DNA from: Mobula hypostoma
Taxonomy: Eukaryota
Direction: 5' to 3'
Length of the DNA: 64,000 bases
Assembly (NCBI RefSeq): GCF_963921235.1
Contig: NC_086108.1
Coordinates: 42,596,001 to 42,660,000, forward strand
Shown: positions 33,001 to 36,000 of the stretch, piece after piece
How the letters are laid out: every line of letters starts with the position of its first letter
How positions within the stretch are numbered: position 1 is the first letter of the stretch
Position numbers and translations under genes: made by a program
Notes under the pieces: model-generated
The model's database searches: none
Told to the model about the DNA's origin: nothing
What the model saw: the letters and a program-made list of their open reading frames with translations, nothing else

Positions 33001-36000
33001 TGGCAACGTCACTTGCAGGCTTTCCAAGAAGCAAACCCTGGCCTCCCACAGCTTTGGTGTTCCAACCCTTTGGAGAATGCTTTTAAAATACACTGTATAT
33101 TCTAACAGTTGTGTGAGCAAGCTTTGCAAAATCAGGATTTATATAGAGGGTCATTGATCAATGAATGGCCATATTTTCTGAGAAAATTTCTGAAGTCCCA
33201 ACTAACGTGCAGAAAAACAGTAGATGAAAATATTCAGATAAAGCAATAAAGGGGCACTAAAGCTTCTCATTCTGTTCCTGTTGATGGTACTTGACAAAAA
33301 TGTAAGTAAACATGCAAGTTTAAGTACTTCTCATACAGCATGCTCATGAATAAGTTGACTGCATTTGAGAGTTTCATGCCAAGGGCACAAGGGCAGAGAG
33401 ATATCTGTTCAGCTGTTGTGGCACTGAAGAAATTACAACAGCCTGGAGATTATAGTTCACTTAATTATCACATGGTGAGCCTCTTCCATTACACTATTTG
33501 AAAGTTGCTTGATTTCAATACATTAATAACTGGATCTCAAATGATATATATTCAATTTCCTTTGAAAGTGCATTTATTTTAACTCTTTGGTTGATTTTTC
33601 AAGTTTTTGCCCAAAGCCAGATTCTGCAAGATACAGCAGCTTCCTTCGTGAACTTGCTTCACACATTGTAAAGGAATTGCAACAAATACTGCATCAGCTT
33701 TTCTAGCTGACAGGTACATATATCAGCTCCAAACAGATGTTGATACTTAAACCTTTTATTGATAGTGGAAAAACATATTTTTAATATTTTAATATTTCAA
33801 GCTTATAATTGAAGAGAGCAAATACATACTCGCTAACTTCTGCAATATGTAGATGCCGCAAATTTACCCAGAGTGTGTCATCCTCATCCAAAAGAGCCTC
33901 TTTGGATGCTGACTCTTCTTTTGTTTGATATCTATTAAAATGAAAACAAAAACATAATGTCATGAACATTTTATAGAATAGAAAATCCAGTCCAGAGAGC
34001 CACACCCTATCAATCAATCAACAAGTGTACTGGTGTATCACTGCTTATAAGATGACAAGTGAGGAGAGTCAGACTCCATTACGATATCCCACATATCACC
34101 CAACTATCAGTGATTATGATCAAAGCAGAAGAATGATCCTTATGATTAAATGCTTTAAATCTCCTTACTCACTGCTCCAGAATGTGAAATTCCAGATTAA
34201 ATCTGATCAAGCCAAAAACAGCATCTTTGGCACACTTAAGAAACACAAGAGATTTTGGAGATGTTGAAAATCTTGAACAACAGACACAAAATGCTGGTTG
34301 GCACACAACGACTTCAAGCATCTGAACCAAAAAGTAACACTGAAATTTTACCCAATTTTAATAAATATGTCATAGCAAGTCAGTAAATCATTCTTTTGCA
34401 GCACACAGAATCTCAGAAAGAGACTTCTAACTCATTTTAACATTATAACTTGAACAAAACGGAAACACGAGGAATTCTGCAGATGCTGGAAATTCAAGCG
34501 ACACACAAAGTTGCTGGTAAACGCAGCAGGCCAGGCAGCATCTCTAGGAAGAGGTACAGTCGACGTTTCGAGCCGAGATCCTTCGTCGGGACTAACTGGT
34601 CCTGACGAAGGGTCTCGGCCTGAAACGTCGACTGTACCTCTTCCTAGAGATGCTGCCTGCAGTCCCGACGAAGGGTCTTGGCTCGAAACGTCGACTGTAC
34701 CTCTTCCTAGAGATGCTGCCTGGCCTGCTGCGTTTACCAGCAACTTTGATGTGTGTAACTTGAACAAAAGATTGTTTTCTTTAAAGAAAATCTCTTAATG
34801 ATATTGGTGTGTTACACAGACACACAACATTGGAGGAACTCAGCACATCAGAAAAATCAACAGTTGTCATTCCAGGCTAAGACTCTTCAACTGGACTGGA
34901 AAGGAAGGCGGCAGAAGCCAGAATAAGAAGGTAGAAGGAAGTGGGTTGAGTACAAGCTGGCGGTGATAGACAATTCCAGGTGAGGGAAGAGGTGGGTGTG
35001 TGGTGAAGGGGATATGATGTGAGAGGCTGGGAGGTGATAGCAGGAAGATGTAAAGGGTTGAGGAACAAGAAATCTAATAAAGGAGGACATTGGATCATGG
35101 AATACAGAGAAGGAGGTGAGGAACAAGGGAGAGATAATGAGCAGATTATGAGGGAAGGGGAGGGGAACAGAAGGGGATGAGAGGACCACCAGGATAGGGA
35201 GTGAGGAAAAAAAAGAAAAAAATTGGGGCAGGAGAGCAGAGGGGAATTGTTCCTGGAAGTCGGAGAAATCGATGTTCGTGCCATGAGGTTGAAGACTACC
35301 CAGACAGAATATGATGTGTTGTTCCTCCAACCTGAGTTTAGCTTCATCATGGCAGTGGACAATGCCATGGACAGCCATGTTTGTATGAGAGTAGGAAGTC
35401 AGATTGAACTGGGGGAGGCCACCAGAAGATCTTGGCTGTTGCAGCAGACAGGATGAATGAACTCGACGGAGCGGTCCCCCAATGTATGTCGGTTTTACTG
35501 GCATAGAGGAGGCCATACCAGAGGCACTGGAAACAAAAAGTCCCCCGGCATAATCACAGGTGTCCATATTTTATTAAGTTTAAGTCTGACAGGAAGAATA
35601 ATTTTGACTTTTGAGTATCTTATTTGTAACGGAACTGATGTTTAAGGAACGCCAATTTGCACATGCAATTTGGATGAGATAACCCCAGAAAGCAAACCGT
35701 AGGTGGAGCATGTCAATAAATTGAGGAAGGTATCAGGAAATTAAGTTGGCCCTATATTTCCATATTTCCTGCATAATACAGTCAATAATTATTATCAATA
35801 ATGCTGAGTGAAGGAAGACTAAAACAATCATGAGTGAGCATGAATTTAGAAGCAACTTCACTTAAGCAACTATTCCTAGAAGAAATTCCAACCTCCCAAT
35901 AAATGTTGTATCAAATCAGCACTGTGACATAAAGATTGTGCAAGCTTACCTATAAATGTTATTTTCAATTGGAACCAAGTCATAAGCCATAGCTTGGAAA

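What the first reader, a model, noticed from the sequence alone, without database searches (positions are those of the whole stretch)
34446..34769. 296-bp insert with three hammerhead motifs: an inverted pair plus a 63-nt tandem repeat
Seen: between a perfect 14-bp TSD lie one minus-strand motif and two plus-strand motifs 63 nt apart, with no coding sequence. The flanking arms (~34508-34593 and 34661-34747) form a long hairpin. Two motifs have CCGACGA instead of CTGACGA and share ggctcgaaac, while the middle one is canonical, implying two different templates in one event. Inference: tandem ACGT palindromes could form a cis double hammerhead, and template switching during PLE integration built the structure.
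Basis: partly seen in the sequence, partly recalled or inferred. Interest (0 to 1): 0.7.

Follow-up and report, generated by a model that had tools for sequence, protein, structure and literature searches.

The report
Minimal three-part Penelope retroelement insertion
This 296-base insert in an intron of a ray-like fish's STXBP3 gene is three scraps of the end of a very abundant Penelope-type jumping gene (one flipped, two in tandem), likely stitched from two slightly different copies during one insertion, and its small self-cutting RNA motifs are predicted to be buried or on the wrong strand, so it is an ordinary by-product rather than a working double ribozyme.

Summary
Observation confirmed. 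The insert is 34460-34755, with a 14-bp target-site duplication, an antisense arm L, a 61-nt middle unit M and a sense arm R, each carrying a minimal type I hammerhead motif. A relative's contig has the empty site with one TSD copy; a closer relative appears filled. All three pieces are the 3' end of a Neptune-type Penelope-like element. One inverted plus two direct terminal repeats, with a tail on one arm only, is the published PLE layout. Four other head-to-head pairs in this window have the same one-sided tail. L and R share four variants that M lacks, so two templates in one event is supported. The cis double hammerhead is not. The host STXBP3-like gene is transcribed from the minus strand, where M and R are antisense. 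The only sense motif there (L) has U4C and a stem II mismatch and is fully paired in an 88-bp hairpin. On the plus strand the double fold costs about +74 kcal/mol (+19 to +23 without L). Whether the tripartite form recurs could not be tested. Verdict: a tidy integration by-product of a known kind, interest 0.2.

The parts
34446..34459 (.). left copy of the 14-bp target-site duplication
   Evidence: 100% identical to 34756-34769; single copy at the empty site in run X14 record 9
34460..34598 (-). arm L: antisense PLE 3' end, 139 nt, hammerhead region plus the full tail; variant haplotype
34460..34501 (-). 42-nt tail extension, present on arm L only
   Evidence: alignment of window copies, tail blastn; published tail is 30-40 bp (PMC8557442)
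34558..34593 (-). minimal hammerhead motif L (C3 at 34589, predicted cut after 34562); U4C and an A-C mismatch in stem II; the only motif that is sense in the host pre-mRNA
34599..34659 (+). middle unit M: 61-nt canonical PLE end fragment with an intact minimal hammerhead core (C3 34602, predicted cut after 34629; G10.1-U11.1 wobble)
   Evidence: 61/61 identical to 61475-61535
34660..34755 (+). arm R: sense PLE 3' end without the tail; hammerhead with U4C (C3 34665, predicted cut after 34692); same variant haplotype as L
34506..34748 (.). 88-bp inverted repeat (L:R) with M in the 67-nt loop
34756..34769 (.). right copy of the TSD; its first 9 bases match the element's own continuation (start of the tail in L) at 7 of 9
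33932..35948 (-). host intron (about 2.0 kb, ends approximate) of an STXBP3-like (Munc18c) gene, between exons 36083-35949 and about 33931-33826
   Evidence: Pfam Sec1 E 1.8e-6, below the curated cut-off on this fragment; nearest named proteins are STXBP3; tblastn exon map on the minus strand from 59036 to 14194
61138..61575 (+). reference copy of the same young subfamily: end of the PLE ORF, about 300 nt of pyrimidine-rich 3' region, hammerhead and end
   Evidence: 89.7% identity over 29 aa to the C-terminus of P0005

Best explanation
The insert is a non-coding scrap of a Penelope-like retrotransposon, likely made in one integration in which both target strands primed reverse transcription and one cDNA likely jumped to a second, slightly different copy of the element's terminal repeat, and its hammerhead motifs are predicted to be passengers that do not cut at this locus. 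Shown: the 14-bp TSD, the empty site in a relative, PLE origin, the one-sided tail, two haplotypes (L = R, M different), and the position inside an intron transcribed from the minus strand. Inferred: staggered nicks 14 nt apart. The left nick primed at the tail end (giving L) and the right nick primed at the start site 42 nt further in (giving R), helped by 7/9 microhomology. Both cDNAs stopped at the 5' edge of hammerhead stem I, where short copies of this family often begin. The R cDNA jumped to another terminal-repeat copy (a second RNA, or the other pLTR of a partial-tandem RNA), copied 61 nt, stopped at the same edge, and was joined head to head with L. The result is the canonical inverted + direct + direct pLTR layout with no body. 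In the host pre-mRNA it would be a long inert hairpin.
For: Empty site and TSD: table 8 (X14 record 9: 34000-34445, then 34756-34902). PLE identity: window remnants match P0005, which has YIDD, a CX4CxxC linker and a GIY-YIG domain with internal CxxC. The copy at 61138-61575 links that ORF end to a hammerhead identical to M. [quoted passage not shown] Mechanism in print: the Anolis PLE protein cuts and extends both strands, starts RT at two internal sites that bound the tail, and does not need hammerhead cleavage (PMC11167929). Window controls: 4 of 4 other head-to-head pairs (8341-8717, 43923-44925, 48633-48823, 60526-60730) have the tail on one arm only; three by blastn, the oldest by alignment. 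Of the 5 young-subfamily segments in the window, L, M, R and the copy at 2775 begin within 7 nt of each other at the stem I edge; the fifth (61138) is longer. Two haplotypes. Flank divergence of 1% (X5, filled) and 4% (X14, empty) brackets the age at 0.5-2% per lineage, where 6 or more new changes in the two arms have P 0.0003-0.15. Inactivity.
Against: The order of the jumps is not shown. The M-R junction has no microhomology that explains an RT jump, and M's 3' end is not a normal start site. No listed contig bridges the L-M or M-R junction, and the tables were cut, so neither the assembly of the middle nor its copy number was checked. PMC11167929 reports initiation at a site not homologous to the target, whereas here there is 7/9 similarity. 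Folding models ignore tertiary contacts and protein help, and I ran no benchmark on a known active dimer. At the old end of the age range the shared variants could be later mutations (P 0.15).
Confidence: 0.58

Rival explanations
1. One event with fold-back copying. L was the cDNA of a variant RNA and the opposite strand carried a canonical cDNA. Second-strand synthesis from L's end copied 61 nt of the canonical cDNA (M), slipped back onto L itself (making R a copy of L), and rejoined the canonical cDNA near the right TSD.
For: R equals L at the four variants up to 34748 but has the canonical ATG that L lacks. It needs only two RNAs and two later substitutions in the 88-bp arms. Self-priming was proposed for PLE inverted junctions (PMC3846280).
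Against: It needs two extra DNA-level switches, the second within a 13-nt window. A later 3-nt deletion in L explains the same difference.
Confidence: 0.15
2. Two events: a plain L-R fold-back inserted first, and M was captured later at the centre of the palindrome during repair of a hairpin or cruciform break.
For: Without M, the ends of L and R meet in a short palindrome and M is bounded by a 3-nt repeat. M shows 0 changes in 61 nt. The insert folds at -130 kcal/mol as DNA. Plain fold-backs are common in the window.
Against: M begins at the same stem I edge as L and R but does not end at a normal start site. Zero changes in 61 nt is expected with P 0.30-0.74 in a single event.
Confidence: 0.1
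3. One template: all three pieces began canonical, and later mutations were copied between L and R by hairpin-driven conversion, leaving M unchanged.
For: L:R is the dominant pairing. At 34519 the shared variant is rare among laid contigs, which read the canonical letter at 97.6-99.9% of summed depth in 4 of 4 runs (table 3). That figure is soft: reads fit both arms and the mirror position 34735 is not listed.
Against: It needs 6 substitutions in 176 nt (P 0.0003-0.15), with 4 converted and 2 not. The GGCTCG spelling already exists in another copy at 41808.
Confidence: 0.08
4. Functional cis double hammerhead, or nascent retrozyme: a plus-strand RNA starting inside the loop pairs the two ACGU palindromes, cuts after 34629 and 34692, and releases a 63-nt unit.
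For: All helices can be drawn: inner stem I 7 bp, outer 5 bp, stem III 4 bp. Minimal hammerheads work only as dimers (PMC4209133). U4C lowers but does not abolish activity (PMC3088659). Retrozyme units as short as 51 bp are reported (bioRxiv 10.64898/2026.07.22.740005).
Against: It is antisense to the host gene. The double fold costs +74 kcal/mol in the whole insert, +103 for a nascent RNA ending at 34705, and +19 to +23 without L. R carries U4C. Dimers and trimers cut weakly in vitro, 8 of 9 tested Xenopus dimers did not cut, and the Anolis ribozyme needed protein.
Confidence: 0.04
5. The middle unit is an assembly artefact.
For: It is a palindrome inside a huge repeat family, and no listed contig bridges the inner junctions.
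Against: M and R differ at 4 of 61 positions in a haplotype-consistent way. The TSD and the left junction are independently supported (X1 record 1, X5 record 16).
Confidence: 0.03

Closest known systems
Inverted-plus-partial-tandem insertions of EN+ Penelope-like elements (Pen2a_Av and the NRPS-carrying Pen3a insertion, PMC3846280; general scheme in PMC8557442; D. virilis Penelope, PMC2377424)
   Same: One inverted and two direct terminal-repeat pieces inside one TSD; tail on one arm only; short palindrome at the head-to-head junction.
   Different: No ORF or cargo between the two direct repeats; total 296 nt; the pieces are 61-139-nt fragments of two distinguishable haplotypes.
[quoted passage not shown]
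   Same: Type I core, extra nucleotide after A9, no loop III, palindromic 15.2/16.2, short stem I; that paper also reports pairs 100-700 bp apart on opposite strands.
   Different: Two of three motifs carry U4C; M has G10.1-U11.1 instead of the conserved G-C; tandem spacing is only 63 nt.
PAc (Poseidon, Anolis) two-site internal initiation (Frangieh et al. 2024, PMC11167929)
   Same: The two arms end at two positions that bound a tail, as expected if both strands are cut and extended.
   Different: Different clade (linker motif of the Neptune/Nematis type); 42-nt tail; 7/9 target similarity at the tail-less end.
Non-LTR retrozymes (bioRxiv 10.64898/2026.07.22.740005)
   Same: Tandem units derived from a PLE pLTR, each with a type I hammerhead-like motif.
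   Different: Only two units, one with a non-consensus core; embedded in an inverted repeat; no evidence that the unit is mobile or amplified.

Membership tests
EN+ Penelope-like element insertion (derived fragment) | Sequence is the terminal repeat of an element whose ORF ends in a GIY-YIG endonuclease with internal CxxC | tested here: met
   The copy at 61138-61575 joins an ORF end 89.7% identical (29 aa) to P0005 to a hammerhead unit 61/61 identical to M. P0005 has GVIYCVRCSRCGLLYIGET and a Pfam GIY-YIG hit at E 4.6e-4, 20.9 bits, just under the 22.6 cut-off.
EN+ Penelope-like element insertion (derived fragment) | Telomerase-like RT in the same ORF, placed by phylogeny | tested here: inconclusive
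   P0005 and P0006 are partial; YIDD is seen by eye and Pfam found no RT domain in them. No tree was built. The insert itself has no ORF.
EN+ Penelope-like element insertion (derived fragment) | Target-site duplication | tested here: met
   14 bp, with a single copy at the empty site in X14
EN+ Penelope-like element insertion (derived fragment) | Inverted 5'-truncated copy and a one-sided 30-40-bp tail | tested here: met
   L inverted with a 42-nt tail, R without
Neptune clade | CX2-5CxxC linker between RT and EN | tested here: met
   CKRNKCYTC at residue 236 of P0005. The linker is shared with Nematis (PMC8557442), so the clade is likely rather than proven.
Minimal type I hammerhead (min-HHR) | Conserved core C3 U4 G5 A6 N7 G8 A9 / G12 A13 A14 / NUH | tested here: met
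   Met for M only; L and R have U4C. Core consensus is recalled and matches the description.
Minimal type I hammerhead (min-HHR) | Stems I and II formable; palindromic stem III for dimer pairing | tested here: inconclusive
   Formable on paper for M and R; L has an A-C mismatch in stem II. In context only M's helices have appreciable probability (stem II 0.69, stem I 0.38-0.42) and stem III has none.
Minimal type I hammerhead (min-HHR) | Self-cleavage | not testable with these tools
   Needs in vitro transcription; only contigs were available.
Non-LTR retrozyme | At least two consecutive tandem units, each with a complete type I hammerhead | tested here: not met
   Two units (period 63, 2.0 copies), but R has U4C
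Non-LTR retrozyme | The unit is itself dispersed or amplified, and yields circular RNA | tested here: inconclusive
   Only one such tandem in the 64 kb; no whole genome was held; contig tables were truncated

The most novel reading that the evidence does not exclude
The locus is a snapshot of retrozyme birth. PLE reverse transcriptase runs off a discrete RNA 5' end at the hammerhead's edge (an initiator-like YYAGTCC, or a branch point + polypyrimidine + CAG splice acceptor, both present there), jumps to another terminal repeat, and so writes a 63-nt tandem in one step. With PLE protein as chaperone, a plus-strand RNA would cut at both sites and free a 63-nt circularisable unit.
Probability: 0.05. 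Interest if true: 0.6.

Novelty: new member of a known kind. Interest (0 to 1): 0.2.

Why it matters
As an element it matters little: it is one of very many fragments of a PLE family whose layout and ribozyme motif are published. Its modest value is as a clean, dated record of PLE integration (empty site known, two haplotypes in one TSD, three cDNA ends at the same ribozyme edge). That fits the two-strand, two-start-site model from in vitro work, and it shows how short tandem hammerhead units, the raw material proposed for retrozymes, can arise in one step. If the tandem did cut and circularise, it would link PLE integration directly to retrozyme origin.

Tried and rejected
No whole genome is held for this window, so the genome-wide count of the tripartite form could not be made. 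Rfam: no hammerhead family at E<=1; the two hits at 48672-48813 (MIR8670, Plastid-psbJ-4, both below gathering) are a PLE fold-back. Pattern scans for the family core found 0 matches in metagenome contigs and 0 in viral contigs, which is uninformative for a vertebrate repeat. No RNA holder was listed. Run X9 (RNA by guess) had no cover on the left flank, so it says nothing on polymorphism or expression. No listed contig spans the inner junctions, and 153,688 pieces were not shown. Pfam on the decayed EN remnants found nothing; the homolog search was needed. No TSD of 6 bp or more was found around the 43923 pair or the 61469 copy; the 48633 and 60526 pairs gave only 6-7-mers that may be chance. 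Splicing from the first to the second repeat as the origin of the M-R junction was rejected because no donor site follows M in the reference copy. ADAR editing as the source of the shared variants was rejected because the changes go both ways (T>C and C>T) on the same strand. Look-up of earlier findings by sequence, by words and nearby returned nothing. Literature searches found no paper on this elasmobranch family's insertion structures, but the library lacks most subscription journals and Repbase, and no supplements were read.

Full report
Observation. A 14-bp direct repeat (34446-34459, 34756-34769) bounds 296 nt. Inside lie an 88-nt inverted repeat (34506-34593/34661-34748, 98%) and a 63-nt-period tandem (34599-34659/34662-34722, 93%). 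The RNA folds at -216.5 kcal/mol, z -22.9. A recalled hammerhead pattern finds three motifs: L on the minus strand (C3 34589), and M and R on the plus strand (C3 34602, 34665). Rfam reports no hammerhead in the window.

It is a real, dated insertion. Four public runs were laid on 34000-35000 (all contigs). In X14 (organism C, 18 differences in 446 flank bases) one contig passes from 34445 directly to 34756, which is the empty site with a single TSD copy and no deletion. In X5 (organism B, 5 differences in 484 bases) the left-flank contig runs 24 bases into the insert. That is under the tool's 31-letter rule for bridging but is an exact continuation, so B appears filled; X1 (organism A, possibly the window's source) does the same. 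The insertion therefore likely falls between the two splits, at about 0.5-2% divergence per lineage. Summed depth over the insert is about 1e6-1e7 in X1 against about 17 on the flank contig. The tool warns that this is not a copy number, but the family is plainly enormous. No listed contig bridges the inner junctions, and the tables were truncated.

What the pieces are. Blastn finds related segments at about ten other places in the 64 kb. Several continue into GIY-YIG endonuclease remnants. These match ray proteins P0005 and P0006, which carry YIDD, a CX4CxxC linker and a GIY-YIG domain with internal CxxC (Pfam E 4.6e-4, just below the curated cut-off). That is a Penelope-like element with a Neptune/Nematis-type linker (PMC8557442 passages). 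The copy at 61138-61575 joins the ORF end to a hammerhead unit identical to M over 61/61 nt. So L (34460-34598, antisense, with a 42-nt tail), M (34599-34659) and R (34660-34755, no tail) are fragments of the element's 3' terminal repeat.

The layout is the published one. Passages of PMC3846280 describe two direct pLTRs plus one inverted pLTR inside one TSD, with the tail on one arm and a palindrome at the junction. PMC8557442 and PMC2377424 (passages) give the same scheme. PMC4209133 (parts 1-2 of 4) describes the minimal dimer-type hammerhead in pLTRs and pairs 100-700 bp apart on opposite strands. PMC11167929 (parts 1-2 of 4) shows a PLE protein cutting and extending both strands, starting at two internal sites that bound the tail, and not needing ribozyme cleavage. 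In this window 4 of 4 other head-to-head pairs (8341-8717, 43923-44925, 48633-48823, 60526-60730) have the tail on one arm only (three by blastn; the oldest by alignment). What sets this insert apart is only that nothing lies between the two direct repeats.

Two templates. Against the 61475 copy, L and R share four substitutions (U4C, the two-base change in stem II, and one at 34519/34735) and have one private substitution each in the 87-nt core. M has none, and the copy at 2776 has none of the four. L also lacks 3 nt before the tail. For 0.5, 1 and 2% divergence, six or more new changes in the two arms have P 0.0003, 0.009 and 0.15, so pre-existing variants are favoured but later conversion is not excluded. 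At 34519 the laid contigs read the canonical letter at 97.6-99.9% of summed depth in all four runs, suggesting the L/R haplotype is rare. This is soft because reads fit both arms and the mirror position is not listed. L, M, R and the copy at 2775 all begin within 7 nt at the 5' edge of stem I; the fifth young segment (61138) is longer. Upstream in the long copy lie a branch-point-like CTAAC, a pyrimidine run and CAG, and the edge also fits an initiator pattern (both consensus patterns recalled). In D. virilis the intron ends at the 5' end of helix I. This suggests a natural stop or RNA end, but it is untested.

Mechanism. The most likely path (0.58) is staggered nicking, priming of both strands at the two start sites, termination at the stem I edge, one jump of the R cDNA to another terminal-repeat copy, and head-to-head joining. 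The TSD's first nine bases match the start of L's tail at 7 of 9, which fits priming at the inner start site. Fold-back copying (0.15), later capture of M at the palindrome centre (0.10), conversion between the arms (0.08) and misassembly (0.03) remain possible; the junctions alone do not separate them.

No support for a working double hammerhead. The window holds an STXBP3-like gene on the minus strand (Pfam Sec1; PDB Munc18 chains; named homologs; exon map), and the insert lies in an intron of about 2 kb. The host pre-mRNA therefore reads M and R as antisense. The one sense motif, L, has U4C and an A-C mismatch in stem II, and its core is unpaired with probability at most 0.001. On the plus strand, forcing the double-hammerhead helices costs +74.3 kcal/mol in the whole insert, +103.2 for an RNA ending at 34705, and +19.3 to +22.9 without L. 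The M:R stem III has probability at most 0.0003. These models omit tertiary contacts and protein, and I ran no benchmark on an active dimer, so only the whole-insert figures are decisive. In the idea's favour, all helices can be drawn, U4C reduces but need not abolish activity (PMC3088659 passage), and M is left in the loop with stem II at 0.69 and stem I at about 0.4. Against it, dimers cut weakly and 8 of 9 Xenopus dimers did not cut (bioRxiv 10.64898/2026.07.22.740005, parts 1-3 of 5; supplements not seen). PMC6155905 (passages) added nothing specific.

Earlier scan notes on this genome (unchecked AI notes) report many fold-backs, tandem pairs, two-template pairs and 5' ends at the ribozyme edge. 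They agree with this reading but are not independent evidence. None of the listed notes describes this exact tripartite form.

Verdict. The feature is real and correctly described, and the two-template reading is supported. The ribozyme-function reading is not. It is a new member of a known kind, interest 0.2. The boldest reading not excluded, one-step birth of a cleavable 63-nt retrozyme unit, has probability about 0.05.

Noticed in passing
window 59036-14194, minus strand: STXBP3-like (Munc18c) gene with exons across most of the window; the insert and most PLE fragments are intronic.
   Followed up: partly
window 61455-61477 and the same position in six older copies: Just 5' of the hammerhead lie a pyrimidine run and YAG (with a branch-point-like CTAAC in the 61455 copy), also fitting an initiator pattern; the young subfamily has an extra TTAG there. 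One old copy (21084) lacks the AG. It could define the RNA end at which short copies begin.
   Followed up: partly
window 2765-2882: About 98-nt insertion of the same young subfamily starting at the stem I edge, with a 10-bp TSD at 2765 and 2873.
   Followed up: partly
table 5, joint 34756 to 34463: 23 contigs in X1 and 18 in X5 join a sense 3' end to the outer end of an antisense arm, i.e. tail-to-tail junctions elsewhere in the genome, the opposite of the usual head-to-head form; the letters between are not known.
   Followed up: no
table 5c, joint 34634 to 34599: A joint with two letters between, from just past the cut site back to the stem I edge, may be an even shorter (about 38-nt) tandem hammerhead unit at another locus; the kind of joint is not given.
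   Followed up: no
window 48672-48813: A PLE fold-back scores E 5.5e-12 against Rfam MIR8670 (below gathering), showing that such fold-backs can mimic miRNA precursors.
   Followed up: no
window 57937-58172: 83-nt, 95% inverted repeat with a 70-nt spacer, with no match to the PLE end; possibly part of a DNA-transposon or MITE-like element.
   Followed up: no
window 34241-34325 and 34820-35570: Older decayed PLE ends flank the young insert on both sides within 220 bp; the right one keeps an endonuclease remnant on the minus strand.
   Followed up: partly
window 371-1819, 19561-20463, 24399-25385, 50519-51808: LINE remnants: RT ORF at 371 (Pfam RVT_1), a similar one at 19561, an esterase-domain ORF at 24399, and an ORF at 50519 with no Pfam hit that looks like a LINE C-terminus from recall.
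   Followed up: no
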